This document shows positions 5,873-49,489 of a stretch of 64,000 bases of DNA, piece by piece. Source of the stretch: Candidatus Woesearchaeota archaeon (GTDB lineage: Archaea > Nanobdellota > Nanobdellia > SCGC-AAA011-G17 > CAYUTI01). Under the pieces are notes generated by a model that saw nothing but the letters and a program-made list of their open reading frames with translations, made no database searches and was not told the origin of the DNA. The stretch spans positions 267,064 to 331,063 of the forward strand of contig CAYUTI010000001.1 in NCBI GenBank assembly GCA_964447685.1, given 5' to 3'. The position numbers and the translations under genes were made by a program. Position 1 is the stretch's first letter; the number at the start of each line of letters is the position of its first letter.

Positions 5873-6505
5873 ATGGTAAAATTTATGAATTTTTTGAATA
5901 AGTTCATTTCTCAGTTTTTTAAGAAAAAGAAGAATCTGAAGTTGGGATTATATGGTCCTCCTAATGGGGGTAAGAGTACTTTAGCTAATAAAATTTGTAT
6001 GGATTGGTTAGGTCAAGAGATGAGTAAAACAAGTAATATTGCTCATGAGACTAGAGAAGTTAAGATCCAAGAAAAAATAAATATTAAATCTAAAGATGGT
6101 AAAGAATTATCATTTAATATTGTTGATACTCCTGGTATTGCTACTAAAATTGATTATGAAGAGTTCTTGAAACATAGAATGACTAAAAAGGTTGCTAAGC
6201 AAAGAGCTAAAGAAGCAACTAAAGGTGTAATTGATGCTATAAAGTGGTTAGATAATATGGATGCTGTTGTTGTAGTATTAGACAGTACAGAGAATCCTTA
6301 TAATCAAGTAAATGTAACTATTATCGGGAACTTGGCTGCTAGGAATATCCCAGTTTTAATTGCAGCTAATAAAGTTGATTTGAAAAAATCTGATATTAAG
6401 AAGATTGAGAGCGCATTTCCACAATATCCTGTGGTTGGAGTCTCAGCACTAAAAGGAAACAACATTGAAGATTTTTACGACAGTTTATTTAAATTGGTGA
6501 GGTGA
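5873..6505 (+). CDS. small GTPase (MMR_HSR1-like)
   Basis: G1 GPPNGGKST, G3 DTPG, G4 NKVD. Confidence 0.8.
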   Translation: MVKFMNFLNKFISQFFKKKKNLKLGLYGPPNGGKSTLANKICMDWLGQEMSKTSNIAHETREVKIQEKINIKSKDGKELSFNIVDTPGIATKIDYEEFLKHRMTKKVAKQRAKEATKGVIDAIKWLDNMDAVVVVLDSTENPYNQVNVTIIGNLAARNIPVLIAANKVDLKKSDIKKIESAFPQYPVVGVSALKGNNIEDFYDSLFKLVR

Positions 6506-6888
6506 AAATGTTAACATTACAATTTATACCATATGAGGAAATACAAGGATTAGAATCTGAAAAAAGGATTGTTAAAATTCTAGACGTAGTTAAAAACAAT
6601 AAAATAGTTTTGTTGCAAGGTAGACTAAAAAGTGCTGAAGAAACTGAACTTATACAGAGAACGATGGAGAGTATAAATAGTAAATTTAAAGGTATTGAAT
6701 TATGTACTATTTATCCAGAAGCTAAAGATATGCAAACTTTAGAGAAAATAAGAAAGGGTGTTGTTAAAGTTTTATTAGGAAATAGAGAGGGCTTGACTAT
6801 TGTTGGTCCTGCTAGTATTGTTAAGGAAATTAAGAAGAATCCTGGTAAAATTGAATTATTAACTAAAGAAGTGCGTAGGAAGAAATAA
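6502..6888 (+). CDS. DUF2073-like protein
   Basis: Start overlaps the GTPase stop; this is the archaeal GTPase/DUF2073/Zn-ribbon gene order. Confidence 0.45.
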   Translation: MKMLTLQFIPYEEIQGLESEKRIVKILDVVKNNKIVLLQGRLKSAEETELIQRTMESINSKFKGIELCTIYPEAKDMQTLEKIRKGVVKVLLGNREGLTIVGPASIVKEIKKNPGKIELLTKEVRRKK

Positions 6889-7256
6889 TGCCACACCAAT
6901 GTGTAAAATGTAATAAAATATATGAAGATGCTAGTGAAGAGTTATTAAAAGGATGTACGTGTGGCGGTAAATTTTTCTTTTTTGTTAGGAAAAAAGATAT
7001 TGAGGAAGCTCAAAAAATTACTATTAACTTAACTTCTCAAGATAAAGAAGAAATTGAGAAAGATGTTAAAGAGATAATTGGTAAAGAGTTTGATGAGACT
7101 AAACCTGTTATTTTAGATCTTGAGAGTATTCGTGTTCTAAAACCTGGTAAGTATGAATTAGATTTAGTTGAATTGTTCCAGGGGAAACCTTTAGTTTATA
7201 GATTAGAAGATGGTAAGTATTTTATTGATATTGCTGCTAGTCTTGGGAAACATTGA
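6888..7256 (+). CDS. Zn-ribbon protein (DUF2072-like)
   Basis: CVKCN...CTCGGKFF CxxC..CxC ribbon at the N-terminus. Confidence 0.5.
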   Translation: MPHQCVKCNKIYEDASEELLKGCTCGGKFFFFVRKKDIEEAQKITINLTSQDKEEIEKDVKEIIGKEFDETKPVILDLESIRVLKPGKYELDLVELFQGKPLVYRLEDGKYFIDIAASLGKH

Positions 7257-11429: not shown

Positions 11430-13493
11430 ATGGATATGAAGAGACAAATTTTAGGGATTGTTTTGATATTTTTGTTAGGCTTAAGTTTAGTTAACGCTGG
11501 TGTTGGTGTCCTTGATGATGGTGTTAGAATTTCTGAACCAACTGGTTATCAAGCTGCACCTTATGTTTATGAAGAAGGAGATAGTTTTGATGTTTGTTTT
11601 ACATTGAAAAATGAAAACAATTATGTTGCTTTAATCAACCCAACTTTTTATGTTATGAAATTAAATTATGCAGTTACTGGTTTTCCAGTTTATACTGAAG
11701 AACAATTGTTATGGGTTGTTCAAAATTATAATCCTACTCAAACTTTATATCATACTGAAAGTCGATTTATGGGATTAGGTGTTGATCAAACAAAATTAGT
11801 TTGTTTTAGTTATGAATTAGAAGAAGAAGGATATTACCAATTTGATTTGGGAAGAGATGGTAATGATAGTATGTGGGCTGCTGGTTTTATCAGAGTTGTT
11901 GATAATGATTCTGATGATGATGAAATTCCAGATCCTGAAGATAATTGTCCTTTAGTTTACAATCCTAATCAAACTGATAGTGATAATGATGGATTAGGTA
12001 ATGCATGTGATAACTGTGCATTTGACTATAATCCTTCCCAGGAAGATAGAGATGGTGACGGTATTGGGGATGTTTGTGATCCTAATGGTAGCACTGAATG
12101 TGATGATGGGATTGACAATGATGGAGATAACTTAGTAGATATGGATGATCCTGACTGTTCAAGTCCTGAAGATGATGATGAAAGTGGTAATAGTTTACCA
12201 GAGTGTTCAGATAATCTAGATAATGATGGAGATAATTTAATTGATGAATTAGATCCTGGTTGTTATACTAATGGATTCTATAATCCTCTAGATGATGATG
12301 AGAGTAATGATATCCCTGGAAGTTATGAATGTTCAGATCTAGTTGATAACGATGGAGATAACTTAGTAGATATGGATGATCCTGACTGTTCAAGTCCTGA
12401 AGATGATGATGAAAGTGGTAATAGTTTACCAGAGTGTTCAGATAATCTAGATAATGATGGAGATAATTTAATTGATGAATTAGATCCTGGTTGTTATACT
12501 AATGGATTCTATAATCCTTTAGATGATGATGAGAGTAATACCTCTGGTTACCAGTATGAATGTTCCGATTTAGTTGATAACGATGGAGATAATTTAGTTG
12601 ATTGGTATGACCCTGGTTGTTATACTAATGGAATCTATAACCCTTGGGATGATGATGAAACTAATGTTCCTAATGGAGATTATGAATGTTCAGATCAAGT
12701 TGATAACGATGGGGATGGATTAGCTGATGTTTTAGATCCTGGTTGTTGGGATAATGGTGTTTATAATCCTCTAGATGATGATGAGAGCAATGATATTCCT
12801 GGAACTTATGAATGTTCAGATTTAGAAGATAATGACAATGATGGATTTACTGATATGTTAGATCCTGGTTGTGATACACCTTTAGATGATGACGAGACTA
12901 ATGTTCCTAATGGAAATTATGAATGTTCAGATTTAACAGATAATGATGGAGATGACTTAATTGATTGGTTTGATCCTGGTTGTTATACCAATGGATACTA
13001 TAATCCTTGGGATGATGATGAGAGAAATCAAGGTAGTACTAATCCTGAATGTTCTGATGGAAGAGACAATGATGGAGACGGTTTAATTGATATGAAAGAT
13101 CCTGATTGTTTGAATCCTTGGGATGATAGAGAAGAAGGTAACAAAGGTTCTAATGCTGCAAGCCAACCTTGTGCTAAACACAGTTTAAGCATTACTCAAG
13201 TTGTATTGAATGATGACTGGACTGTTATCCAAGCAGGAGATCTTTTAGAAATCTATTCTAGCATTAAGAATGATGGAAGCTTCACTGAAAAGGGTGTTCA
13301 TATTAAAGCTGAAGTTGTTGAGTTAGGTGTTAGTGAAGAAAGTATTAGATTTACTTTAGGACCTAAAGAATCTGATTTCGCTAGTGTTTATTTAGATATT
13401 CCAGCTGATGCTTATGGTGTTTATACCTTAAGATTAGAAGTTGAGAATGACAATACAAAAGACGTACATTATGTTGATTTCGAGGTCTTTTAG
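11430..13493 (+). CDS. secreted Asp/Cys-rich repeat protein (thrombospondin type-3 / MopE-like motifs)
   Basis: Signal peptide; [27 protein letters not shown] (TSP3-like); nine ~38-aa repeats of ECSDxxDNDGDxLxDxxDPGC. Confidence 0.8.
12120..12581 (+). repeat. 2 x 231-bp near-perfect tandem duplication inside the repeat-protein gene
   Basis: 12120-12308 is nearly identical to 12351-12539 (one mismatch seen by eye); downstream copies become degenerate. Confidence 0.85.
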
Positions 13494-13568
13494 GCCTTGA
13501 ATCATGATACCGAAAGGTTTAAATATGGAAAATAACCATTCAATAGTGGTTATTTTATAGTACTATAA

Positions 13569-13573
13569 GGAGG
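13569..13573 (+). promoter_or_regulatory. Shine-Dalgarno GGAGG upstream of candidate S-layer gene
   Basis: aaGGAGGatacgagattaaaATG; A/T-rich tattttatag box further upstream. Confidence 0.5.
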
Positions 13574-13586
13574 ATACGAGATTAAA

Positions 13587-14903
13587 ATGAAAATAGCAAA
13601 ATTTGTTGCTGTATTGGCTGTATTTTTAGTAGCTCTTACTACTTTTGTAAGTGCTGAAAATACTGATTTGTACAGTATTAAACAAGTAAAAGTTGACGGT
13701 ATAACTGTTGACGGAGACGTAGTTGTTTACGCTGAGAGAGGAAGTTCACTTCCTGTTGAAGTAATAATCGAAGGAACTTTAGATTGTCCTGTAGATGAAG
13801 ACTGTTATTCAGAATACGATGCAAGAGTTAAAGCTTGGATTGGTGGTTATGAATACGGTGAAGTTAAAGATGTTACATCTGCTTTTGAAATTGAATCAGG
13901 TGTTACATACAAAAAGACTTTATCTTTAGATTTACCTAATGATATGGATGCTTCTGATGACTATACCTTACACGTTGAAGTTTATGATGACGACAACGAG
14001 TACAGAGAAAGTTACACTTTAAGAGTTCAAGAGACAAGACATCTATTAGCTATCCAAGATGTAATCTTTAGACCAAGTTTAACTGAAATTGATGCTGGTA
14101 GACCTTTGTTTACAACTGTTAGAGTTGAAAACTTAGGAGATAACAAAGAAGAAGACATCAAAGTTACAGTTAAAATTCCTGAATTAGGTCTTGAAACTAG
14201 AGACTATATCGACGAATTAACTGCTGATGAAGACAGAGATGAAGCTGAAGATAATGAGTATGAAGAAGATTCAGCAAGTTCTGATGAACTTTATTTAAGA
14301 ATCCCTGACAATGTTCAAAGTGGTTACTACGATGTTGTTGTTGAAGTTGAATACAACAGAGGTCACGATGTTGTTAGAGCAACCAAATCTCTTTACATAA
14401 ATGGTGTTCAAGCTGAAGAAACACAAAAAACTGTTATCAGTGTTGATGGTGGAGACAAGGAAATCGTTGCTGGTGAAGACGCTACATACAAAGTTATGTT
14501 CGCTAACCTTGGTGACGAAACTAAAATCTACACTGTTGAAGTTACTGGTGCAGGAAGCTGGGCTGACGTTAATGTTGAGCCAAGTTTCGTAGCTGTTAAA
14601 TCTGAATCAACTGGAGAAGCTTATATTACAGTTACTCCAAATGAAGATGCTAAAGCTGGTCAACACATGTTTACTGTTCAGATCTTAGAAGATGGCGATG
14701 TAGTTAAAGAAGTTAACTTAGTTGCTGATGTTGAAGCTAAAGAATCTGGATGGGATATCGCTAAAACAGTATTAGCTGTAGCTTTTATTGTATTATTAAT
14801 TGTATTAATAATCTTAGCTATTGCTTTAGCTGTTAGAGCTGGTAGAAGAGACGACGACGATGAGTTAGAGCCTACTACTGAAGAAGGCCAAACTTATTAC
14901 TAA
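13587..14903 (+). CDS. acidic cell-surface protein with C-terminal TM anchor; candidate S-layer / major envelope protein
   Basis: Signal peptide, C-terminal TM + RRDDDDE tail; codon usage shifts to GAC/TAC/AAC/ATC/GGT/GCT unlike neighbours; strong SD and hairpin-oligoT terminator. Confidence 0.6.
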   Translation: MKIAKFVAVLAVFLVALTTFVSAENTDLYSIKQVKVDGITVDGDVVVYAERGSSLPVEVIIEGTLDCPVDEDCYSEYDARVKAWIGGYEYGEVKDVTSAFEIESGVTYKKTLSLDLPNDMDASDDYTLHVEVYDDDNEYRESYTLRVQETRHLLAIQDVIFRPSLTEIDAGRPLFTTVRVENLGDNKEEDIKVTVKIPELGLETRDYIDELTADEDRDEAEDNEYEEDSASSDELYLRIPDNVQSGYYDVVVEVEYNRGHDVVRATKSLYINGVQAEETQKTVISVDGGDKEIVAGEDATYKVMFANLGDETKIYTVEVTGAGSWADVNVEPSFVAVKSESTGEAYITVTPNEDAKAGQHMFTVQILEDGDVVKEVNLVADVEAKESGWDIAKTVLAVAFIVLLIVLIILAIALAVRAGRRDDDDELEPTTEEGQTYY

Positions 14904-24534: not shown

Positions 24535-24923
24535 GTCACTTAAAAACAAAAATAGCGGAATATGGAATAATAATTAAAGATAATAAATTTTTAATGCTTA
24601 AATTTTCTAAGGAAGCAAATCCTTCTGAGAAGTGGATCTTTCCTGGTGGGAGATTAGATAAAGGTGATAATCCTAAAAAAGCTTTAGTTCGAGAGATTAA
24701 AGAAGAAACCAATTTAGATGTTAAAATTCTTTATCCTTGTGATGTTAGTGTATGGGGAAAAGGAGAAGATCATAGATATGCTGTATTTTTTGTTTGTAAA
24801 TTGAAAAAAGGAGAAGTTAAATTATCTAAAGAACATCAAGATTTTAAGTGGTTTTCTTTTGATGATAAAATAGATTTTCATGATAAGTCTTTTGAAAAAG
24901 TTTTGGAGGTGATTAAAAAATGA
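24531..24923 (+). CDS. Nudix hydrolase
   Basis: Nudix box GGRLDKGDNPKKALVREIKEETNL. Confidence 0.75.
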   Translation: MSHLKTKIAEYGIIIKDNKFLMLKFSKEANPSEKWIFPGGRLDKGDNPKKALVREIKEETNLDVKILYPCDVSVWGKGEDHRYAVFFVCKLKKGEVKLSKEHQDFKWFSFDDKIDFHDKSFEKVLEVIKK

Positions 24924-25135
24924 GTGGACCTGGAGAAGGAAAAAAATTGTTGAAAGGTGTTAAGGTGTATGTGCATGAGAAAGGGAAATCTGGTGCTACT
25001 GTTACTCATATAGATATTGAGGGGGCTAGCATTTCTAAGATTATTAAAGAAGGTGAGACTAGTTTTGTTAAGGGTAAGAAAGGTGGATGTTTTATTGCTT
25101 TGAAGAAGGAAATGATTAAGAGGGCTGAGAAATGA
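24920..25135 (+). CDS. small basic hypothetical protein
   Basis: 71 aa, coupled by start/stop overlap. Confidence 0.4.
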   Translation: MSGPGEGKKLLKGVKVYVHEKGKSGATVTHIDIEGASISKIIKEGETSFVKGKKGGCFIALKKEMIKRAEK

Positions 25136-25362
25136 GTTTGAATCCTTTGGTTGCTAAAGCTCAAGGTTTTGAACAGATGAGCCTACATGAAAGAGGTGGA
25201 TCTTGTAGAAGTAGTATGGAAGATATAGTTAGGAATAATCTTGAGAGGTTGGAAGTTGTTCGTAAGTTTATTGAAGAAGGTCCTTGTGTTGAAGAAGTTA
25301 GTGAGTATAAAGGTAAATTAAATCTTTTGGTTGCTAAGGTTCATGGAAGATATAGACAATAG
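25132..25362 (+). CDS. small hypothetical protein with internal repeat
   Basis: NPLVAKAQG...NLLVAKVHG duplicated segment. Confidence 0.4.
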   Translation: MSLNPLVAKAQGFEQMSLHERGGSCRSSMEDIVRNNLERLEVVRKFIEEGPCVEEVSEYKGKLNLLVAKVHGRYRQ

Positions 25363-25400
25363 AAAGGTTTAAAAGATTAAATTTGTTTTATTTTTATTGT

Positions 25401-25528
25401 GCCGAGGTCGCATAGCCTGGCCATTGCGAAGGATTGCTATAGGCTAAAAAGTCTATTAGATTACCTTTAATGGCTTACAAAGATCCTTTGTCCGTAAGGG
25501 CACGGGGGTTCAAATCCCCCCCTCGGCG
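25401..25528 (+). tRNA. tRNA-Ser (GCU) with 43-nt intron at 37/38
   Basis: Acceptor GCCGAGG/CCTCGGC, discriminator G, long variable arm GTCC-GTAA-GGGC, T-loop TTCAAAT; exon anticodon stem AAGGA/TCCTT; intron 25440-25482. Confidence 0.75.
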
Positions 25529-25540
25529 TTTTTATTATTT

Positions 25541-25813
25541 TTAAGAATAAACTCTTAATCGCTCTTGGATATATTGGGGTAATTGAGAAAAATCAATATT
25601 TTCGTTTATCACTACATCAAACATAGCAATCATAAACTTTGTTAAACCTTCATAAAAATCATTAATTGAACCTGCTGTTAAACATTCCTCTTTATAGATC
25701 ATTCTTATACTTTCTTCCATTGCTTTTAATCTATGTTCATTTATTCCTTTGGCTCTTGCTTCAGCGAACAAATCAGATTCTACTCTTGAGAAATCTTGTA
25801 GTGTGATTAACAT
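25541..25813 (-). CDS. hypothetical protein
   Basis: 90 aa. Confidence 0.4.
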   Translation of the reverse strand: MLITLQDFSRVESDLFAEARAKGINEHRLKAMEESIRMIYKEECLTAGSINDFYEGLTKFMIAMFDVVINENIDFSQLPQYIQERLRVYS

Positions 25814-25817
25814 TTTT

Positions 25818-26192
25818 TCAAAGAACTCTTTTTAGCATTGAATCTGCTGTATCGCTTTCTAAGTAAGCTGTTGAATTAATTTGATAAGCACTTTTAGGAA
25901 TTGTATTTAAAAGACCACTTAGTTTTTCTTTTAATGGGCCTTCAGCTTTATGACCTGCTTTTGTTGAAAACATGATTAATCTTTCATCTTCTGAAACCAT
26001 TTCGTCTATCATTATAATGCCCTGTTCAGGTAATAAATTTTTTTGAGTTGCTTCTTCTAAGGTTTCTTCTATTTGGGTCCTATAACGACCATTTTTTACT
26101 TTAATACTAAGAACTACAGGATTTCCATATTCTGGATCTGAATCTACTATTGCTTGGTCCAGGCATATTCTTAAGTCGTCTATTTTGTTCAT
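25818..26192 (-). CDS. hypothetical protein downstream of the GGDEF gene
   Basis: 124 aa; possibly an alpha/beta regulatory fold. Confidence 0.4.
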   Translation of the reverse strand: MNKIDDLRICLDQAIVDSDPEYGNPVVLSIKVKNGRYRTQIEETLEEATQKNLLPEQGIIMIDEMVSEDERLIMFSTKAGHKAEGPLKEKLSGLLNTIPKSAYQINSTAYLESDTADSMLKRVL

Positions 26193-26266
26193 TTTAACCC
26201 TTAATTTTTAAGTATTTTTGGTTTATAAATCTTTCTAATTGTTATTATTTCTTAGTAGTGGTATTT

Positions 26267-27211
26267 TTAGACAGATTTTACGGTTTGATTTCTACCACTC
26301 TGTTTAGCGGTGTATAATGCTTTGTCTGCTCTTGCTACTAAATCTAGTTTATTTTCTTCTTCTTTAAGCTGAGCAACACCTGCACTGATAGTAATTCTAA
26401 TAGGAATACCTTTATATTCAAAATATTCATTTTCTATTGCTTTTCTTATTTCATCAGTTTCTTTTTGAGCAGTTTCTAAATCTTTTCCTGGGAACAGTAA
26501 TGAAAATTCTTCTCCACCATACCTTCCACTTAATTTTTCTCCAGCTTTCTCTCTGATTATTCTTGATACTTCAGTTAGAACATAGTCACCTCCTAGGTGA
26601 CCAATTCTTTCATTATGATCTCTAAAATGATCAATATCAATCATTGCAAAGGAAAATGATTCATTATATCTATTTGCTGTTCTTACTCTATAGTCTATTG
26701 CTCTTTCTAGAGTTCTTCTATTTTGTAAGCTAGTTAAAGCGTCTATATCACTTAGTTCTTCATTTGCTTTTTTGTTTTTGATCTTTTTTTCTGCTAAAGA
26801 AGCAATCTTTTTAATTAAATGGATTTGTGGACCTATGAAACCTTGTTTATTATAAACAAAGAATACCCCATTTTCAGTAGGAATTGCTAGGTAAGGACCA
26901 TTATGAGTTGTTCTTTGACTTTCATAGGTTGTAGTTATTAACTCTTCTACTCCTTCCAAGGTTTCTGGAGTTTCTTTAATTCTTCCTCTTTCAAGTAATT
27001 CATCTCCTTCAATAATTCTAACAGAACCACCTTCTAATTCATCTCCAAGGTTTCTGAAATATTCTTGAATTGCTCTAAGAGTTTGGTTTGCTAATTCTCC
27101 AACATCATTATAATCATCTAACTCTTCTTGAACTGCACTAATAAAAGAGAGCTCACTAGGCGAAAACTGTCCATATTCTCTTATAAGTTTGTCTAGTGCC
27201 ATTTTATTCAC
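26267..27211 (-). CDS. GGDEF-domain diguanylate cyclase with unknown ~150-aa N-terminal domain
   Basis: Full motif set DALTSLQNRR, FSFAMIDIDHFRDHNERIGH, GGDYVL, GRYGGEEFSLLFPG, ISAGVA, ADKALYTAKQSGRNQ; no RxxD I-site. Confidence 0.85.
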   Translation of the reverse strand: MNKMALDKLIREYGQFSPSELSFISAVQEELDDYNDVGELANQTLRAIQEYFRNLGDELEGGSVRIIEGDELLERGRIKETPETLEGVEELITTTYESQRTTHNGPYLAIPTENGVFFVYNKQGFIGPQIHLIKKIASLAEKKIKNKKANEELSDIDALTSLQNRRTLERAIDYRVRTANRYNESFSFAMIDIDHFRDHNERIGHLGGDYVLTEVSRIIREKAGEKLSGRYGGEEFSLLFPGKDLETAQKETDEIRKAIENEYFEYKGIPIRITISAGVAQLKEEENKLDLVARADKALYTAKQSGRNQTVKSV

Positions 27212-27271
27212 CTATTTTAGTTACTAATAAGTAGTTATTATAGTTTATAAAGGTTTCGGTATGTTAGAACG

Positions 27272-28024
27272 TTACAAAGACCGTTTATATCCTATATTTA
27301 GGCTTTCTAGAAGAGTTTTTACATGTTCTTTGTTAGATCCTAGGCCTTTCCAGTCTAATAAAATGAATTCTGTAGGTTCTTTAGATTTCTGTATACATTG
27401 GTTTAGAAGGTCTTCATTTAAAGCGGGTAAAGAGTGTTTTGCACAGATGTAACTGATTGTATATTCTGTTTCTAAGAGAACATTATTTGCTTTTTGATTA
27501 TAGTGTTGACCACCTAGTAAAAGTATTGATTTGTAGGTTTTATATGGTTTAGAGAGGGTCTCTATTAGGGTTTTAGCTATGATTTTTGCTGGTAATTTGT
27601 CTGTCCATTGGGTTTTTGTAGTGCCTATTTCTATGAATATTACAGGTGTTTCTAAGTAGGGTCCATGATGAACTTGTTCTGTTGTTAATTCGTAGTTTGA
27701 ATCGTTGTTTTTGTTAAGGTTTAAGAAAAGAGTTTTGAAGAATGAGGGGATTGTAGGACAGATTTTTTTTGGTTTTCCGCCGAATTCTGCTTTATCCCAG
27801 TTTCCAGGAATGTGTATAGATAGAGTTTTTCTTTCTTGTTGAGATTGGTGTTTAGTTGCGAAAATTATTAAGTCTGAGTTTAGAGTTTTGTCTATATTTT
27901 CTGCGTAAATAGATTCTTCTACATGGTGGATTGATACATTTTTTGGTAAAGTGAGTTTTTTTAGTTCTTGTTCTATGTTTAAAGAAGCTTTGTCCTGGTT
28001 TGAGATGATAATTGTTGTTTTCAT
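27272..28024 (-). CDS. dtdA: D-aminoacyl-tRNA deacylase, archaeal type (DtdA/DTD2)
   Basis: SIHIPGNWDKAEFGGK, HHGPYLETPVIFIEIG and LLDWKGLG align with the archaeal DTD2 conserved blocks. Confidence 0.7.
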   Translation of the reverse strand: MKTTIIISNQDKASLNIEQELKKLTLPKNVSIHHVEESIYAENIDKTLNSDLIIFATKHQSQQERKTLSIHIPGNWDKAEFGGKPKKICPTIPSFFKTLFLNLNKNNDSNYELTTEQVHHGPYLETPVIFIEIGTTKTQWTDKLPAKIIAKTLIETLSKPYKTYKSILLLGGQHYNQKANNVLLETEYTISYICAKHSLPALNEDLLNQCIQKSKEPTEFILLDWKGLGSNKEHVKTLLESLNIGYKRSL

Positions 28025-28067: not shown

Positions 28068-29522
28068 ATGTTAAAATATGTAATCATAGATTGTTATACG
28101 GATGAACCTGCGGGATTAGGTGTTCCGCCTTACTTAGGAACTTATCCTAGATATCTTTATGGAAAGTATTTTGGGAAGGTTTCTTATTTGACAATTGATG
28201 ATATTCGTTTATGGAAGAAAACTGGTTCTAAAATAAAGAGAGTTAAGATAAGTGGTAAGAGTGATAAGAAGACTTACAATTTATCTAAGAATTATGCTAA
28301 GGTTGAGGGTTTGTTGAGAAAAGCTAAAGTTTTGATTGTTATATTGGGTGTACATACTCCTGGAAAGTATTTGAGTGCTGAACCTGGAACTTTGAAAGAG
28401 ATTAATTCGTTGTTGAAAGATGTTAAGACTAAAAAGGTTTTAACTGGACCTGCTGTTTATGGAACTCAAGTTGAGGGTGGAAAGAAAGTAGAGTTAAGAT
28501 TTGAGGGTTTAGTTGAAGAAGATATGATTGGTAGTTATGATGAGATTAAGAAGTATGCTTTAAAAGGTGTTAATATTTTAGATGAGATTGATGATTTAAG
28601 AATAGTTGAGATTGAAACTTCAAAAGGTTGTTCTCGTAAAAAAGGATGTAGTTTTTGTACTGAGCCTTTGAAAAGTTGTTTAGAAGTTCGTAAGTTAGAT
28701 GATGTTTTAAAAGAAGTTGAAGCTTTGTATAAAAAAGGTGTGAGGTATTTTAGAATTGGTAAGCAAAGTTGTTTTTATTCTTATCCTTGGGCTATTGAGT
28801 TACTTAAAGGAATTCGTGCTAAGTGTCCTGATATAAAAGTTTTACATATTGATAATGTAAACCCAATGATGGTTGTTAGTGATAAAGGTGTTGAAATTAC
28901 TAAAGCTATTGTTAAATATTGTACTTCTGGAAATGTTGCTGCTTTTGGAGTTGAGAGTTTTGATCCTCAAGTTATCTCTGAGAACAATTTAAATTGTGTT
29001 GATGTTGATAAAGTAATTGAAGCTATTAGAATTATTAATAAGTATGGTTCAGAAAGAGGTTCTAATGGTTTGCCTAAGTTTTTACCAGGTATTAATTTAA
29101 TTTTAGGTTTGAAAGGTGAAAGTAAAAAAACTTTAGATTTGAATTTTAAGTATTTGAAAAAGATACTTGATGAAGGTTTGATGATTAGAAGAATTAATAT
29201 TCGTAAAGTTGTTGTTTTTCCTGGAACTGAAATGAGTAAGGTTGGAGATAAGTTTCTTAAACAGAATGGTAAGTATTATTTTGAGTTTAGGAAGAAGCTT
29301 AGAGAAGAGATTGATGCTAAGTTTTTAGAAAGAGTTGTTCCTAAAGGTAATATTCTTAAAAATGTTAGAATGGAAGTTTATGAAGGAAAGAAAACTTTTG
29401 GTAGACAGGTAGGGACATATCCTTTAGTTGTGGGTGTTGAGGGTAGATATGGAATAGGTAAGTTTTATGATGTTGAAGTTGAGGATTATATGCTTAGAAG
29501 TGTGAAAGGGAAAGTTATTTAA
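28068..29522 (+). CDS. radical SAM superfamily protein with YgiQ/UPF0313-like N-terminal domain
   Basis: N-terminus VIIDCYTDEPAGLGVPPYL; Cys cluster CSRKKGCSFC (Cx5Cx2C rather than Cx3Cx2C). Confidence 0.55.
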   Translation: MLKYVIIDCYTDEPAGLGVPPYLGTYPRYLYGKYFGKVSYLTIDDIRLWKKTGSKIKRVKISGKSDKKTYNLSKNYAKVEGLLRKAKVLIVILGVHTPGKYLSAEPGTLKEINSLLKDVKTKKVLTGPAVYGTQVEGGKKVELRFEGLVEEDMIGSYDEIKKYALKGVNILDEIDDLRIVEIETSKGCSRKKGCSFCTEPLKSCLEVRKLDDVLKEVEALYKKGVRYFRIGKQSCFYSYPWAIELLKGIRAKCPDIKVLHIDNVNPMMVVSDKGVEITKAIVKYCTSGNVAAFGVESFDPQVISENNLNCVDVDKVIEAIRIINKYGSERGSNGLPKFLPGINLILGLKGESKKTLDLNFKYLKKILDEGLMIRRINIRKVVVFPGTEMSKVGDKFLKQNGKYYFEFRKKLREEIDAKFLERVVPKGNILKNVRMEVYEGKKTFGRQVGTYPLVVGVEGRYGIGKFYDVEVEDYMLRSVKGKVI

Positions 29523-32634: not shown

Positions 32635-35600
32635 GTGGTGTATAAACGTTATATTACTGATAAGAATGGAAAAAAGAGAGGACCTTATTATTACAAGAAT
32701 ATTCGGGAGAATGGTAAGGTAAAATCTGTTTATTTAGGTACTAAGAATCCTGAAGATAAAAATGTTTTTAATTATAAACCTATGTTCGTAGTTGCTTTGT
32801 TTTTGATTGGTGTGTTTGGTATTGTTTTTTTGAATTTAGTTTATACTGGTTATTCTGTACATGAGTCTAATTCTTCTAGTACCGATGAGTGGATAATGTT
32901 TGGTAGAACTTTAAATAATACCCGACTTTATCCAGATAATATTAATTTAGCAAATTTTGGACTTTTGTGGACTTCTCCTGCTACTAGTGGTTCAATGGTT
33001 TATACAAGTGCTTCTATTCTTGAAGGAGTTTTATATTATGGAGATACAGGAGGTTATATTCGTGCTATTAATCTGTCTACTGGTGAATCAAGATGGAATT
33101 TTTCTTTAAATTCTACTATTACTTATTCTTCTTCTGCAATTGCGAATAATACTTTATTTATTGGTACAGGAAGTACTAATGAAGAGGGCAGTAAACAACT
33201 TTTTGCTTTAAATATTACGAATGGAACTCGGCTTTGGAATCGATCTCTTGGAAATGCAGTTGGTTCTCCGGTAGTATATAATAATACTGTTTATGTTATG
33301 ACTCAGAATAAGGTTTTTGCATATTCTTTATATGGTGATCACTTGTGGAATCGTAGTGGAAATGGATCAGATATTATTCCATATCCTCCTTCTTTAGCAG
33401 TATATAATAATACTTTGGTAGTTTCTTTAAAAGAAAGCACGAATCATTTTTTACAAGCTTTAAATGCTACTGATGGAACCTTATTCTGGAATTCTCACCT
33501 TCGGGGTAGAACATCAAATCCAGCGATTTATGAAGATGTAGTTTATGTTGGAGGAGGTTTAAATTCTTCTTGGGCAATGGTTACTGCAGTTTGGTTCACT
33601 AACGGAACCCAAAGATGGAATTATACTTTTGATCAGACTTGTTCGATGGTTCGGTCTTCTCCTGCGGTTTCTAATGATAGAGTTTTTGTTGGAGTTACTT
33701 GTCCTCAAGCCTTGGATGATTTTTATGCTTTTAATGCTACAAATGGTTCTGTTATTTGGAGTAAAAACTTGGGTACAAATTTAGTTCCAAGCCCTACTGT
33801 TACAAATAATGGAATTGTTTTTATGGGTTCTGATGACAATAAAGTTTATGCTTTTGATGTTACTAATGGAGATGAACTTTGGATGTATACTACTCCTAAT
33901 CTAATAACTTACTCTTCTCCTACTATTGTTGATGGAAGATTGTATATCGGTTGTGAGAACGGAAATATGTATGCTTTTGCACAAAATGATACTATCGCTC
34001 CTCAAGTTAATCTTCTTACTCCTCTTGATAATCAATCTTATTTTACAAGTGAAGCTACTAGAACACTTACTTTTACTTATAATGTTTCAGATGGAGGTAA
34101 TGATATTGCTAATTGTAGTTTAATTTTGGATGGTGCTGTGTTTAGTACTAATAGTACCATTGTTAAGAGTCAATCTAGTTTGAGTTTTGATGTGGCAATA
34201 CCTTATGGAGATCATACTTGGAATATTAATTGTACAGATTATGGAAATAATGAGGGAACTAATTCTAGTAGAAGTTTGAATTTATTACTTGTTTCTGAAA
34301 ATAACTCTATTAGTGATTGGTTAATGTTTAGAGGAACATTAAATCATACCGGTTATTATCCTGGAACGGTTAATTTGAATAATTTTGGTTTGTTGTGGAA
34401 TTATCCTACTTTTGATGATTTGAGTACTCCTGCATCTTCTCATGCTATTTATTCAAGTCCGGTTGTTTATAATAATACTGTGTTTTTTTCTGCTCAACAT
34501 CAATCCCCACCTATTCATAATCACTATTCTTTAAATGCTACAAATGGAAGCAAGGTTTGGAATTACAGTTATAATATACTTGGTTCTATTGGTGAACCTT
34601 CCAGCCCGGCTATCACTAACCATCTCTTATATGTAGGAAGTAGTATAGGAAATCTTACTTCTATCTGGGTTAATAATGGAACACCAAAATGGAAGGGAAT
34701 AGAGGGAGTTATCCTTTCAAGCCCAGCGATTTATAATAATACTCTTTTTATTGGAGAAGGAACAAATCTTTCTGCATTTAATGCAAGCGACGGTACTTTG
34801 CTCTGGACGCGTTACTCAAATAATTCGAATAATTATGCAACTCCTGCTGTTAGAGATGGTATAGTATATATGGGGGGGTCTAATGGTACTGGAAATCTTG
34901 GTGTATTCTATGCTCTTTGGACTAATAATGGAACTATAAAGTGGAGTAAGAAATTAAATGGAACTTATACATCTAGTCCTACTTTAGTTAATGATCTGCT
35001 TTATATCGGAACTTTGACTAAACAGGTTTATGCCTTAAATACTACTGATGGAGATATTGTTTGGAATTATACTACCGGAGATGTTATTTATTCTTCTCCT
35101 GCTTTTTTTAAAGGTGTGACTTATATTGGAAGTAATGATAATAATCTTTATGCTTTTAATGCTACCAATGGTACTTTAGTATGGAATTATTCTACAGGAG
35201 GAGATGTTTATTCAAGTCCTACAATCACAGAGAATGGTATTTTATTTGTTGGTGGGGCAGATAATAAATTTTATGCTTTTAATGCTACTAATGGAGAAAA
35301 ACTTTGGGAATATACAACAGAAAATCTTATTAGTTATTCTAGTCCTGCTATTGCAAATGGTAGGATTTATATTGGTTGTGTGAATGGAGATATGTATGCT
35401 TTTGCTGCAAGTGCGGATACGGATTATCCAATAGTTACTTTATCAATTCCTACTGCTGGACAGACTTTTTCAGTAGGTTCACAAAATATAAGTATTACTT
35501 TTACCTATAGTGTTTCGGATGTAAGTAATGATATTGCTAATTGTAGTTTGATCATTGATGGCGTTGTTAATTTGACTAATAGCACTATTGTTAAAAGTCA

Positions 35601-36858
35601 AAGCAGTTTATTTTTTAACCAAACTTTTGCTATATCAACAACTCATACTTGGGATGTAAATTGTACAGATTATGGAAATAATGAAGGAAATAGTAGTGGA
35701 CCTAGGAGTTTTAGTATAAATGCTATAACTAGCCCAGGAGGTCCTAGTTCTTCTAGTTCTCCTAGCACTCCCGTTACTCCAGTTACTCCAGTAGTAGTTC
35801 CTGAACCTAAGCCCGAAGTAAAACCTGAATCGGTGATAGAACCAGCACCTCCAGTTACAACTCAAATTTTGAGTAGTGCAGGTAACTCAAGAAGTCAGAT
35901 GAGATCTTGTTTGAAGGAAGCTGATTTTAGTCCTGAAGAAGCGGAGTATATAGTTGATGTGTTAGGTTTAGATTTGTGTGCTTTTAAGAGAGGTAATGTT
36001 GATATTGCTGTTGAGGAGAGATGTGGGGGTATAGAAATTGTTTTAGATTCTAATACAAGAGTATTTAGTTCAATGTTGGATAGTGTCCCTGAATTCTTAG
36101 TGGATTTTAGTGCTAAACAGATTAGTGAAGAATGCCCTTGGTGTAATAATGGTGTTAAGGATTATGATGAAGAAGGAATAGATTGTGGTGAAAGTTGTAA
36201 AGCTTGTGATGTTGTTGAGGAAGTTATTTATGAGTTTGATTATAAAGAAGTGTTGCCTTGGTGGTTGTTGATTCTTGCTTTTGGATTTTTGGTTGTTTTA
36301 TTTTATTTTAGAAATTACTCTAGGATTCATTTTAAATCTTTTACGGTGGTAGGGATTTTAATTGCTTTTGGATTATTTTTAATGAATGGTTCTGGTAAGA
36401 TTACTGGTGCTGCTATAGGTCTTGTTGATACATTAAATAATATCTATATCTTTGTTTTGTTTTGGTTTATTGTTTTTGGATTTTTAGGTTTTTGGATTTA
36501 TAAAAAAATTACTCGTGTTAGGCCTAGTTTGATGAGTGTTGAAAGTTTATTGAAAGATTGTATGGATTTACTGAAAAAAGAGGAATATGGTCATGCTAGA
36601 GAAGTGTTTGATTTAGCAGATAGCAGGTATCATGATTTACGTAAGAGTAACGAAGAAGTTGATAATCTATATAATGAAATTGAATTTTATCTTGAAGTTT
36701 ATGATTTATGTAATCGGATTAAATTGAAGGAAAAAGTTAAAGAAAAAGAATTTGATAAGTTGATTGCTAAGGCTTCTAAAATTAAAGTGAGTTCTAAAGA
36801 TGTTTATGCTGATATGAAATCTAAGTTTGATTCTGCTTTAAGAAGCTTTAAAAGATAA
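32635..36858 (+). CDS. giant (1407 aa) membrane-anchored surface protein: 2 x [PQQ-like beta-propeller + Ig-like module], Pro/Thr linker, Cys knot, 3 C-terminal TMs
   Basis: Repeated PQQ/BamB-like blades (VYVGS.DNKLYAFNATNGxxLWxYTT); duplicated ANCSLIxDG...IVKSQSSL...NCTDYGNNEG modules; dense NxS/T sequons; start is GTG/uncertain. Confidence 0.75.
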   Translation: MVYKRYITDKNGKKRGPYYYKNIRENGKVKSVYLGTKNPEDKNVFNYKPMFVVALFLIGVFGIVFLNLVYTGYSVHESNSSSTDEWIMFGRTLNNTRLYPDNINLANFGLLWTSPATSGSMVYTSASILEGVLYYGDTGGYIRAINLSTGESRWNFSLNSTITYSSSAIANNTLFIGTGSTNEEGSKQLFALNITNGTRLWNRSLGNAVGSPVVYNNTVYVMTQNKVFAYSLYGDHLWNRSGNGSDIIPYPPSLAVYNNTLVVSLKESTNHFLQALNATDGTLFWNSHLRGRTSNPAIYEDVVYVGGGLNSSWAMVTAVWFTNGTQRWNYTFDQTCSMVRSSPAVSNDRVFVGVTCPQALDDFYAFNATNGSVIWSKNLGTNLVPSPTVTNNGIVFMGSDDNKVYAFDVTNGDELWMYTTPNLITYSSPTIVDGRLYIGCENGNMYAFAQNDTIAPQVNLLTPLDNQSYFTSEATRTLTFTYNVSDGGNDIANCSLILDGAVFSTNSTIVKSQSSLSFDVAIPYGDHTWNINCTDYGNNEGTNSSRSLNLLLVSENNSISDWLMFRGTLNHTGYYPGTVNLNNFGLLWNYPTFDDLSTPASSHAIYSSPVVYNNTVFFSAQHQSPPIHNHYSLNATNGSKVWNYSYNILGSIGEPSSPAITNHLLYVGSSIGNLTSIWVNNGTPKWKGIEGVILSSPAIYNNTLFIGEGTNLSAFNASDGTLLWTRYSNNSNNYATPAVRDGIVYMGGSNGTGNLGVFYALWTNNGTIKWSKKLNGTYTSSPTLVNDLLYIGTLTKQVYALNTTDGDIVWNYTTGDVIYSSPAFFKGVTYIGSNDNNLYAFNATNGTLVWNYSTGGDVYSSPTITENGILFVGGADNKFYAFNATNGEKLWEYTTENLISYSSPAIANGRIYIGCVNGDMYAFAASADTDYPIVTLSIPTAGQTFSVGSQNISITFTYSVSDVSNDIANCSLIIDGVVNLTNSTIVKSQSSLFFNQTFAISTTHTWDVNCTDYGNNEGNSSGPRSFSINAITSPGGPSSSSSPSTPVTPVTPVVVPEPKPEVKPESVIEPAPPVTTQILSSAGNSRSQMRSCLKEADFSPEEAEYIVDVLGLDLCAFKRGNVDIAVEERCGGIEIVLDSNTRVFSSMLDSVPEFLVDFSAKQISEECPWCNNGVKDYDEEGIDCGESCKACDVVEEVIYEFDYKEVLPWWLLILAFGFLVVLFYFRNYSRIHFKSFTVVGILIAFGLFLMNGSGKITGAAIGLVDTLNNIYIFVLFWFIVFGFLGFWIYKKITRVRPSLMSVESLLKDCMDLLKKEEYGHAREVFDLADSRYHDLRKSNEEVDNLYNEIEFYLEVYDLCNRIKLKEKVKEKEFDKLIAKASKIKVSSKDVYADMKSKFDSALRSFKR

Positions 36859-49135: not shown

Positions 49136-49489
49136 ATGCATTCATTACCTCAAGAGATCGAAGTTTGGTATGTAATCCCTGCTATTCGTAGAGAGTTTGT
49201 TAAAGAGATGAAGAGTAAAGGATTGAATCAAAGTGAGATTGCTGTTAAATTAGGTTTGACAAGAGCTGCTGTTTCGCAATATGTTTCTGGTAAGAGAGGT
49301 AGTGAAGTTAAGTTTAGTAAAGATGTTAAAGAAGAGATTTCAAAAGCTGTTGTTGGTTTGATGGAAGGTCGTGAACCAGTAAGTGCTATTCAGAGAGTTT
49401 TAAATTTTATTAAGAAGAAAGGATGTTTATGTGATATTCATAAAAAATTAGATAAAAATGTTTGTAATTGTGGAGGTTGTTGCAAATGA
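49136..49489 (+). CDS. HTH regulator with C-terminal Cys cluster, upstream of iscS
   Basis: HTH LNQSEIAVKLGLTRAAVSQYVSGKRG; C-terminal CLCD..CNCGGCC. Confidence 0.5.
   Translation: MHSLPQEIEVWYVIPAIRREFVKEMKSKGLNQSEIAVKLGLTRAAVSQYVSGKRGSEVKFSKDVKEEISKAVVGLMEGREPVSAIQRVLNFIKKKGCLCDIHKKLDKNVCNCGGCCK

What the first reader, a model, noticed from the sequence alone, without database searches (positions are those of the whole stretch)
25541..27211. Canonical GGDEF diguanylate cyclase in an apparently archaeal genome
The 314-aa protein has every hallmark of an active diguanylate cyclase (DxLTxLxNRR, DIDHF..ND, GGDYVL, RYGGEEF, ISAGVA, ADxALYxAKxxGRN). It lacks the RxxD I-site and has an unassignable ~150-aa N-terminal domain. 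GGDEF domains are essentially absent from archaea, while the surrounding genes (Dph5, DtdA, intron-containing tRNA, RtcB/archease, SAMP/NcsA) are archaeal. Either this is a rare archaeal c-di-GMP (or other cyclic dinucleotide) signalling enzyme, possibly acquired from a bacterial host or neighbour, or it makes a different nucleotide second messenger. Two small unknown genes lie immediately downstream on the same strand.
Basis: partly seen in the sequence, partly recalled or inferred. Interest (0 to 1): 0.75.

Follow-up and report, generated by a model that had tools for sequence, protein, structure and literature searches.

The report
Bacterial-type c-di-GMP synthase in DPANN archaeon
A small symbiotic-type (DPANN) archaeon carries, firmly embedded in its own chromosome and behind an archaeal-style promoter, an intact copy of the bacterial enzyme that makes the signalling molecule cyclic di-GMP. 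This matters because the molecule has never been detected in any archaeon.

Summary
ORF 26267..27202 (-) encodes a 311-aa protein. Its C-terminal half is a textbook GGDEF domain (Pfam 2e-34, TIGR00254 2e-41, 47 solved cyclases hit). All residues reported as essential are present: PleD D327, N335, D344, R366, GGEEF, K442 and R446. It has Asp, not the Hypr Ser, at the base-specificity position, so c-di-GMP is predicted. It lacks the RxxD I-site and carries an unusual K332R change.

The contig is archaeal, Woesearchaeota-like DPANN. Chimerism is very unlikely: an independent assembly is 100% identical across both junctions, composition and codon usage are native, and there is a TATA box plus SD.

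The 148-aa N-terminal region and the two downstream genes have no detectable homologue anywhere. Four relatives lack the cassette at this syntenic slot. No EAL, HD-GYP, PilZ or riboswitch partner is in the 64 kb.

Verdict: a genuine, anciently acquired, probably active archaeal diguanylate cyclase. It is a new member of a known kind and of moderate interest.

The parts
26267..27202 (-). GGDEF protein gene, 311 aa from ATG 27202 (stop codon 26267-26269).
   Evidence: ORF. 100% identical to P0001 (311 aa; NCBI and Logan; longest contig 408,148 nt). SD/start reasoning from the sequence.
26834..27202 (-). Orphan N-terminal region (residues 1-123), predicted mixed alpha/beta. Presumed sensor or dimerisation module.
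   Evidence: No Pfam hit even at E<=10. An exhaustive phmmer of residues 1-148 against 1.84 billion representatives found only itself plus one spurious repeat protein. hhalign against GAF and PAS profiles was no better than shuffled controls. AF2 pLDDT was about 40-50.
26744..26833 (-). Long helix (about residues 124-153, IHLIKKIASLAEKKIKNKKANEELSDI) joining the N-terminal region to the GGDEF domain. Inferred coiled-coil 'stalk'.
   Evidence: Helix 124-148 in the AF2 model (low confidence). NCBIfam DgcA, DgcR and DgcS models align from residues 125-128 onward. The stalk role is inference from known cyclases.
26270..26743 (-). GGDEF catalytic domain (residues 154-311). D189 and E231 bind metal; N197 and D206 bind guanine; R227; GGEEF 229-233 (nt 26504-26518); K300 and R304 bind phosphate; R194 replaces PleD K332; no RxxD.
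   Evidence: HMM hits. (alignment with PleD, whose sequence and numbering were verified). (motif statistics). (model matches 3ign at TM 0.70, rmsd 2.9 A). Residue roles from PMC7288161.
27244..27251 (-). TTTATAAA TATA-box-like element 42 nt upstream of the GGDEF start codon.
   Evidence: Sequence. WTTATAWA occurs in the 80 nt upstream of 20 of 75 genes, about 7-fold above the window-wide density. The same motif block is repeated upstream of the 124-aa gene (repeat D1).
27209..27212 (-). GGTG Shine-Dalgarno-like element 6 nt before ATG 27202.
   Evidence: Sequence. Neighbouring genes show GGAGG/GGAGGTG at the same distance (output).
26222..26229 (-). Second TTTATAAA TATA-box-like element, 30 nt upstream of the 124-aa gene.
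25818..26192 (-). 124-aa ORFan immediately downstream (74-nt gap, own TATA box). Function unknown.
   Evidence: ORF. Singleton cluster. No Pfam, NCBIfam or PADLOC hit. No homologue in 5.8 billion proteins at the word-index sensitivity. Native codon usage. AF2 pLDDT 58 and no significant fold match, best E=0.009 and TM 0.41.
25541..25813 (-). 90-aa ORFan starting 4 nt after the 124-aa gene's stop. Function unknown.
   Evidence: Native codon usage.
25400..25529 (+). Intron-containing tRNA with a long variable arm, convergent with the cassette and ending 11 nt from the 90-aa gene's stop. An archaeal anchor.
   Evidence: ARAGORN -i finds a tRNA with a 43-nt intron and labels it Phe(aaa). My own reading is Ser(GCU) with the intron at 37/38, based on the class II arm, G73 and the loop TTGCTA.
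27272..28024 (-). Archaeal-type D-aminoacyl-tRNA deacylase (DtdA), 69 nt upstream on the same strand. It gives the taxonomic anchor.
   Evidence: PF04414 E=2.5e-57. Among named hits above 35% identity, every one is Woesearchaeota, Nanoarchaeia or Pacearchaeota (one weaker named hit is Thermoplasmatales); best identity overall is 54%.

Best explanation
The gene is a genuine chromosomal gene of an uncultured DPANN (Woesearchaeota-like) archaeon. It encodes a cytoplasmic sensor-type diguanylate cyclase.

Proposed mechanism:
- Two copies pair through the long helix at residues ~124-153 and the lineage-specific N-terminal domain (inferred).
- Each GGDEF domain binds one GTP-Mg2+. D189 and E231 hold the metals, N197 and D206 read the guanine, and R227, K300 and R304 hold the phosphates. 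These assignments come from alignment with PleD.
- The dimer condenses two GTP into c-di-GMP (inferred; not assayed).
- With no RxxD I-site, the enzyme would not be product-inhibited. Its output would be set by the unknown signal acting on the N-terminal domain and by transcription from its own TATA-box promoter.

The domain came from bacteria, but long ago. It is at most 46% identical to any bacterial sequence, is fully ameliorated, and has archaeal expression signals.

The downstream targets are unknown. The two adjacent ORFans are the only positional candidates.
For: GGDEF domain identity:
- Pfam E=2e-34 and TIGR00254 E=1.6e-41.
- 47 solved DGCs are hit.
- All of the top 50 Foldseek PDB hits are GGDEF domains.

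Catalytic and specificity residues:
- They are conserved in the alignment with PleD. My PleD sequence was verified at about 99% identity (one mismatch in the displayed chains), with a 1-residue offset in 1w25 numbering.
- Residue roles follow PMC7288161.
- Asp at the D344 position, as in all 118 scorable sequences of the top 120, argues for GTP.

Archaeal host:
- DtdA next door: every named hit above 35% identity is Woesearchaeota, Nanoarchaeia or Pacearchaeota.
- Dph5 lies 3 kb away.
- Further markers: archease plus RtcB, MinD_arch, NcsA, SMC_prok_A, ThrRS with the archaeal editing domain, PvlArgDC, and OapB/OapC.
- An intron-containing tRNA lies 11 nt from the cassette.

Not a chimera:
- An independent Logan assembly of SRR14492172 is 100% identical over 3,094 nt, spanning DtdA-GGDEF-p124-p90-tRNA-p76-p71-NUDIX.
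- GC is flat across the region.
- Tetranucleotide distance is at the 24th percentile of window segments, and synonymous-codon fit is among the best in the window.

Archaeal expression signals: TTTATAAA and GGTG upstream of the start.

Syntenic backbone: the order ThrRS-Dph5-DtdA-NUDIX is shared with a relative.
Against: - No enzymatic data exist.
- Lys332 (PleD numbering) is Arg here, which is the only such case among 118 scorable top-120 sequences. PMC7288161 says this residue contacts phosphate through its main chain, so the change is probably tolerated, but that is untested.
- No EAL, HD-GYP, PilZ or c-di-GMP riboswitch is present in the 64-kb window. The other ~344 kb of the contig and the rest of the genome could not be examined.
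- The gene is absent from the same slot in four relatives and has no orthologue in any database searched. It is therefore not a conserved archaeal trait.
- c-di-GMP has never been detected in an archaeon (PMC10249747).
- The dimerisation and sensor role of the N-terminal region is pure inference, because the structure models are poor.
Confidence: 0.65

Rival explanations
1. The GGDEF domain is intact in sequence but does not work as a c-di-GMP synthase in this organism. It might be a GTP- or nucleotide-binding sensor or scaffold. It might have altered chemistry or product because of the K332R change and the shortened loop before GGEEF. Or it might be an evolutionary leftover without partners.
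For: R replaces the otherwise invariant Lys in 1 of 118 scorable top-120 sequences. There is a one-residue deletion in the I-site loop. No degrading enzyme or receptor was found in 64 kb. The gene is a singleton with no orthologues.
Against: Every residue reported as essential is present: D327, N335, D344, GGEEF, K442 and R446 (PMC7288161). Degenerate, non-catalytic GGDEFs normally lose these. The ORF is intact with native codon usage and its own promoter, which suggests maintenance by selection. Asp at the D344 position argues against Hypr-type cGAMP synthesis.
Confidence: 0.17
2. The three genes form a horizontally mobile cargo or defence cassette. In this reading, a cyclic-dinucleotide synthase plus two small effector or regulator proteins was inserted next to a tRNA gene, rather than being a housekeeping signalling enzyme.
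For: The cassette fills a slot between DtdA and a tRNA/NUDIX block that holds different genes in each of four relatives. All three proteins are lineage-specific. A tRNA gene abuts it. A 13/15-nt repeat flanks it at 25475-25489 and 27272-27286.
Against: There is no integrase, transposase or other mobility gene nearby. No PADLOC defence model hits any of the three proteins. The flanking repeat is short, AT-rich, lies in the tRNA intron/anticodon stem rather than the 3' end, and is within chance. Composition is fully native. The relatives are so distant (DtdA about 50% identical) that variable gene content is expected anyway.
Confidence: 0.1
3. Assembly chimera or bacterial contamination: the GGDEF segment is bacterial DNA mis-joined into an archaeal contig.
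For: Historically this is the default suspicion for bacterial-type signalling genes in archaeal MAGs (PMC5847659; PMC10086821). All near homologues of the domain are bacterial.
Against: A second, independent assembly reproduces both junctions at 100% identity. GC, tetranucleotide and codon usage are indistinguishable from the flanking archaeal genes. An archaeal TATA box and SD lie directly upstream. An intron-containing tRNA is 11 nt from one end and archaeal DtdA 69 nt from the other. No bacterial sequence is more than 46% identical, so no plausible contaminant exists.
Confidence: 0.03

Closest known systems
Bacterial GGDEF diguanylate cyclases (PleD, WspR, DgcZ; closest solved: 3IGN, Marinobacter GGDEF domain)
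   Same: The full-length GGDEF domain has all substrate-, metal- and phosphate-binding residues and a GGEEF A-site. It has the common sensor-stalk-GGDEF layout.
   Different: The host is an archaeon. There is no RxxD I-site (present in 92 of 111 scorable sequences among the top 120). Arg replaces PleD K332. The N-terminal domain has no detectable homologue. Identity to any bacterial domain is at most 46%.
GAF-GGDEF and PAS-GGDEF one-component sensors
   Same: Overall size and layout are similar. By eye, residues 103-148 (YLAIPTENGVFFVYNKQGF...IKKIASLAEKKI) resemble the last strands and helix of a GAF domain, and hhalign chose exactly that register.
   Different: The similarity is not significant: probability 0.4, the same as shuffled controls. 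There is no Pfam hit at E<=10. Membership of GAF or PAS is therefore not established.
Hypr GGDEF (GacA-type cGAMP synthases)
   Same: Same domain family.
   Different: The Hypr signature, Ser in place of PleD D344, is absent; this protein has Asp (PMC7288161).
Previously noted archaeal GGDEF hits: Methanocella arvoryzae CAJ37382; REC-(inactive)GGDEF of 'Ca. Micrarchaeum acidiphilum'; more than 300 BLAST hits in Asgard and DPANN MAGs
   Same: A GGDEF domain in an archaeal, including DPANN, genome (PMC5847659; PMC8646023).
   Different: Those reports are lists with an explicit contamination caveat, and the Micrarchaeum domain is described as inactivated. Here the domain is active-type and the archaeal context is verified. 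I could not compare sequences with those proteins because they were not retrievable with these tools.

Membership tests
GGDEF domain family (PF00990 / TIGR00254) | Profile-HMM score above the curated cut-off over the whole domain | tested here: met
   PF00990 119.1 bits against 23.8, profile positions 2-161 of 161. TIGR00254 141.8 bits against 37.4.
GGDEF domain family (PF00990 / TIGR00254) | GGDEF palm-like fold | tested here: met
   Even a low-confidence single-sequence model (domain pLDDT about 55-78) superposes on 3ign at TM 0.70 and rmsd 2.9 A. All top 50 PDB hits are GGDEF domains. The caveat is model quality.
Catalytically competent diguanylate cyclase | GG(D/E)EF A-site motif preceded by Arg (PleD R366) | tested here: met
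   R227-Y-G-G-E-E-F233.
Catalytically competent diguanylate cyclase | Metal-binding Asp (PleD D327) and Glu (E370) | tested here: met
   D189 and E231 are aligned and invariant. Roles from PMC7288161.
Catalytically competent diguanylate cyclase | Guanine-recognising Asn and Asp (PleD N335, D344) | tested here: met
   N197 and D206.
Catalytically competent diguanylate cyclase | Phosphate-binding Lys and Arg (PleD K442, R446) | tested here: met
   K300 and R304 in ADKALYTAKQSGRN.
Catalytically competent diguanylate cyclase | Lys after DxDxF (PleD K332) | tested here: inconclusive
   It is Arg (R194) here, against Lys in 117 of 118 scorable sequences in the top 120. PMC7288161 attributes the K332 contact to the main chain, so the effect is unclear.
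Catalytically competent diguanylate cyclase | Homodimerisation and c-di-GMP production from GTP | not testable with these tools
   This needs purified protein. Only a putative stalk helix is seen.
Product-inhibited DGCs (I-site class) | RxxD five residues upstream of GG(D/E)EF | tested here: not met
   The aligned residues are G-E-K-gap, and secondary-site R390 is Glu.
Hypr GGDEF (cGAMP synthases) | Ser at the PleD D344 position | tested here: not met
   Asp206.
Complete c-di-GMP signalling module | An EAL or HD-GYP phosphodiesterase and a receptor (PilZ, MshEN, riboswitch) in the same genome | tested here: inconclusive
   None was found among the ORFs of the 64-kb window scanned with Pfam or NCBIfam, and there is no Rfam riboswitch. 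The remaining ~344 kb of the contig and the rest of the genome were not available.
Archaeal (DPANN) genomic origin of the locus | Flanking genes, RNA genes and expression signals of archaeal type; no compositional break; junctions reproducible | tested here: met
Known anti-phage defence systems (PADLOC-DB 2.0) | Any of the three cassette proteins matching a defence-system model | tested here: not met
   No hit at E<=0.01.

The most novel reading that the evidence does not exclude
This is the synthase of a working c-di-GMP pathway in a DPANN archaeon. Its input domain and output components are all new to science: a fold-unknown N-terminal sensor, and non-PilZ, non-EAL partners that may include the two adjacent ORFans. 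If so, c-di-GMP signalling would exist in Archaea in a form that domain censuses cannot see. It might be used to control attachment to, or interaction with, the host cell.
Probability: 0.2. Interest if true: 0.8.

Novelty: new member of a known kind. Interest (0 to 1): 0.5.

Why it matters
Reviews still state that c-di-GMP and its enzymes are essentially bacterial, and that GGDEF hits in archaeal MAGs need confirmation that they are not contamination (PMC5847659, PMC10086821, PMC10249747).

This locus is a clean, checkable case. It carries an active-type GGDEF gene on a 408-kb archaeal contig, between an archaeal DtdA and an intron-containing tRNA. It has archaeal promoter elements and native composition, and an independent assembly reproduces it.

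The locus gives a concrete protein to express and assay, so the question 'can an archaeon make c-di-GMP?' becomes directly testable. It also shows that bacterial second-messenger enzymes can be domesticated by DPANN archaea.

It does not by itself show a pathway. No partner genes were seen, and the gene is a lineage-specific singleton.

Tried and rejected
1. N-terminal domain assignment. All of the following failed or were not significant: Pfam at E<=10; exhaustive phmmer over 1.84 billion representatives (whose only hit P0237 is an unrelated tandem-repeat protein); hhalign against GAF and PAS profiles built from hits (no better than shuffles); single-sequence AF2 (pLDDT about 40-50). A GAF-like C-terminal half remains only a visual hint.

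2. Function of the 124-aa and 90-aa ORFans. A concatenated homologue search found only the 124-aa protein itself. Pfam, NCBIfam and PADLOC found nothing. The AF2 model has pLDDT 58. Foldseek against PDB gave nothing below E=0.009, only generic ferredoxin-like alpha+beta resemblance. Same-sized ORFs near DtdA in relatives (L085 90 and 76 aa; L086 124 aa) proved unrelated.

3. Donor lineage. Cloacimonadota give the best tblastn scores. But a BLOSUM62-NJ tree places the query on a long branch (0.31 against a median of 0.087) with unrelated proteobacterial sequences, so no donor can be named.

4. Looking for other archaeal examples among near hits. The contexts of P0024 and P0029 are bacterial.

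5. Orthologues at the syntenic slot in four DtdA-anchored relatives: none.

6. Integration scars: only a 13/15-nt repeat, judged to be chance.

7. Naming the source organism. The GTDB-representative scan did not return the source genome. Cluster look-ups carry no names. The NCBI record is not in the contig index. The SRA run is not mentioned in the paper library.

8. My first structure job was submitted without an alignment, which wasted one of the two jobs for the N-terminal question.
Full report
**What is there.**
On the minus strand, three ORFs fill 25541..27211:
- a 314-aa ORF (GTG 27211, stop 26267);
- a 124-aa ORF (25818..26192) after a 74-nt gap;
- a 90-aa ORF (25541..25813) starting 4 nt after the 124-aa gene's stop.

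The sequence upstream of the first ORF reads ...CCTTTATAAACTATAATAACTACTTATTAGTAACTAAAATAGGTGAATAAAATG. The GTG is part of a GGTG Shine-Dalgarno-like element, 6 nt before an ATG at 27202. Neighbouring genes carry GGAGG or GGAGGTG at the same distance. The database protein P0001 is the 311-aa ATG form. I therefore take 27202 as the start and number residues from it.

**The GGDEF domain is real and of the active type.**
- Pfam PF00990 matches end to end (E=2.1e-34) and NCBIfam TIGR00254 at 1.6e-41.
- 47 distinct solved diguanylate cyclases match at E<=1e-10, the best being 3ign at 4e-32.
- Even a poor single-sequence AlphaFold model finds only GGDEF domains among its top 50 PDB matches. For 3ign the TM-score is 0.70 and the rmsd 2.9 A.

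I checked my recollection of the PleD sequence against the PDB. It was about 99% identical, with one mismatch in the displayed chains, and 1w25 indices are UniProt numbering minus 1. I then aligned it with the query. The mapping, with residue roles from the review PMC7288161, is:

| PleD residue | This protein | Role |
|---|---|---|
| D327 | D189 | metal |
| K332 | R194 | phosphate contact |
| N335 | N197 | guanine |
| D344 | D206 | guanine |
| R366 | R227 | precedes the A-site |
| GGEEF 368-372 | GGEEF 229-233 | A-site |
| K442, R446 | K300, R304 | phosphates |

The residues that review lists as essential (D327, N335, D344) and the A-site are all present. Three features stand out.
- The base-specificity position is Asp, not the Ser of Hypr cGAMP synthases. 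c-di-GMP is therefore the predicted product.
- The RxxD I-site is absent: the aligned residues are G-E-K plus a one-residue deletion. The motif is present in 92 of 111 scorable sequences among the top 120.
- Arg stands where 117 of 118 scorable top-120 sequences have Lys. The review attributes the K332 contact to the main chain, so I regard this as probably tolerated but untested.

**The contig is archaeal and the gene belongs to it.**
The gene 69 nt upstream on the same strand is an archaeal-type DtdA (PF04414, 2.5e-57). Among its named homologues above 35% identity, every one is Woesearchaeota, Nanoarchaeia or Pacearchaeota; a single weaker named hit is Thermoplasmatales. The best identity overall is 54%.

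An intron-containing tRNA with a long variable arm lies convergent with the cassette, ending 11 nt from the 90-aa gene's stop (ARAGORN -i). The program labels it Phe(aaa). I read it as Ser(GCU) with a 43-nt intron at 37/38.

Other archaeal markers in the window are:
- Dph5;
- archease plus RtcB, and a GTPase followed by OapB and OapC;
- SMC_prok_A and ThrRS with the archaeal editing domain;
- MinD_arch, NcsA and an intein-containing NifU/IscU;
- RNase HII, ThiI and ThiF, and pyruvoyl-dependent arginine decarboxylase.

All window proteins tested are singletons at 90% identity, on one 408,148-nt NCBI contig. The organism is therefore a poorly sampled DPANN lineage.

**Chimerism or contamination is very unlikely.**
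- GC is flat at 0.31-0.33 through the region.
- The tetranucleotide distance of 25541..27211 from the window mean sits at the 24th percentile of equal-sized segments. Synonymous codon choice in the GGDEF gene fits the window's other genes as well as ThrRS or HisRS do.
- An independent Logan assembly of run SRR14492172 gives a 3,094-nt contig that is 100% identical to window 24633..27726. It crosses both junctions: DtdA|GGDEF, and 90-aa gene|tRNA|76-aa|71-aa|NUDIX.
- TTTATAAA boxes lie 42 nt before the GGDEF start and 30 nt before the 124-aa start. The two upstream regions are 71% identical over 34 nt. This motif class is about 7-fold enriched upstream of genes in the window.
- No bacterial sequence is more than 46% identical, and then only over the domain, so there is no candidate contaminant.

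**Origin.**
All close relatives of the domain are bacterial. Cloacimonadota score best. However, a distance tree puts the query on a long isolated branch without stable neighbours.

The backbone order ThrRS - Dph5 - DtdA - NUDIX is shared with a relative whose DtdA is 50% identical, and that relative has different genes in the DtdA-NUDIX slot. Three further relatives also lack a GGDEF downstream of DtdA.

The simplest reading is an old bacterial-to-archaeal transfer into a variable slot, followed by complete amelioration and acquisition of archaeal expression signals. There is no integrase and no PADLOC hit, and only a chance-level flanking repeat. I therefore give a mobile or defence cassette low weight.

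**The unknown parts.**
Residues 1-148 have no detectable homologue:
- nothing in Pfam even at E<=10;
- only itself and a spurious repeat protein among 1.84 billion representatives;
- no significant profile match to GAF or PAS domains.

The predicted secondary structure is three helices, a short strand, two helices, a beta-hairpin and a long helix running into the GGDEF domain (low confidence). By analogy with known cyclases, I infer a small sensor or dimerisation module plus a coiled-coil stalk. This is inference only.

The 124-aa and 90-aa proteins are ORFans with native codon usage. The 124-aa model is weak and matches nothing significantly.

**Partners.**
No EAL, HD-GYP or PilZ domain was found among the window ORFs scanned with Pfam or NCBIfam. 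Rfam finds no c-di-GMP riboswitch.

**Comparison with what is known.**
- Galperin et al. 2018 (PMC5847659) knew one archaeal GGDEF (Methanocella arvoryzae) and an inactivated REC-GGDEF in 'Ca. Micrarchaeum'. They warned about contamination.
- Braun et al. 2021 (PMC8646023) mention more than 300 BLAST hits in archaea, many from Asgard and DPANN MAGs.
- Romling 2022 (PMC10086821) says such hits 'need to be confirmed in archaeal contigs'.
- The 2023 review PMC10249747 states that c-di-GMP has not been detected in any archaeon.

The existence of such hits is therefore known. What this locus adds is a validated, active-type example with a new N-terminal domain. I file it as a new member of a known kind.

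**Verdict.**
- Best explanation (0.65): a genuine DPANN archaeal, I-site-less, probably active diguanylate cyclase of old bacterial origin, with an unknown input signal and unknown outputs.
- Rivals: intact but not a c-di-GMP synthase in vivo (0.17); mobile or defence cargo (0.10); chimera (0.03).
- Interest: 0.5.

Noticed in passing
window 25400-25529 (+): Intron-containing tRNA missed by default ARAGORN and by Rfam at gathering threshold. ARAGORN -i calls it Phe(aaa) with a 43-nt intron. The long variable arm, G73 discriminator and loop TTGCTA suggest tRNA-Ser(GCU) with a canonical 37/38 intron instead.
   Followed up: partly
window 5873-7256 (+): A GTPase (MMR_HSR1) followed by OapB and OapC, the archaeal 'origin-associated protein' families. 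A replication origin or orc1/cdc6 gene may lie nearby.
   Followed up: no
window 50635-52152 (+): A 505-aa NifU/IscU-type Fe-S scaffold. The scaffold domain occupies only residues ~384-505, and residues ~155-413 match intein regions of unrelated intein-containing proteins. This looks like an intein-bearing IscU, next to a NifS/IscS cysteine desulfurase (49468-50634).
   Followed up: no
window 28068-29522 (+): A 484-aa ORF transcribed divergently from DtdA. It has no Pfam hit and only weak NCBIfam matches to B12-binding/radical-SAM methyltransferase and methylthiotransferase models. It may be a divergent radical-SAM enzyme.
   Followed up: partly
window 11430-14903 (+): A 687-aa protein with six 'acidic double-disulfide' repeats, followed by a 438-aa protein matching the PACE-CTERM putative S-layer model. 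These are likely cell-surface proteins of the DPANN cell.
   Followed up: no
window 32635-36858 (+): A 1,407-aa protein made of PQQ/BamB-like beta-propeller repeats. It is unusually large for a small genome and is probably an extracellular or adhesion protein.
   Followed up: no
window 27139-27171 (-); protein P0029 residues 20-30: The N-terminal peptide SPSELSFISAV of the archaeal GGDEF protein resembles TPTELAFISAV near the N-terminus of a bacterial GGDEF protein from a hydrothermal-vent metagenome. It is too short to be significant and was not recovered by the exhaustive N-terminal search.
   Followed up: partly
window 25475-25489 and 27272-27286: A 15-nt direct repeat (13/15 identical) brackets the three-gene cassette. 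One copy lies in the tRNA intron/anticodon-stem region and the other at the DtdA stop codon. It is probably chance in AT-rich DNA.
   Followed up: partly
window 25138-25166 and 25318-25346 (+): An internal 29-nt repeat (83% identical) within the 76-aa ORFan 25132-25362, encoding LNPLVAKAQG and LNLLVAKVHG at the two ends of the protein.
   Followed up: no
window 4326-5753 (-): The RtcB scores best against the 'intein-containing RtcB' NCBIfam model, but only through that model's extein parts (model positions 578-961). The gene itself appears to lack an intein.
   Followed up: no
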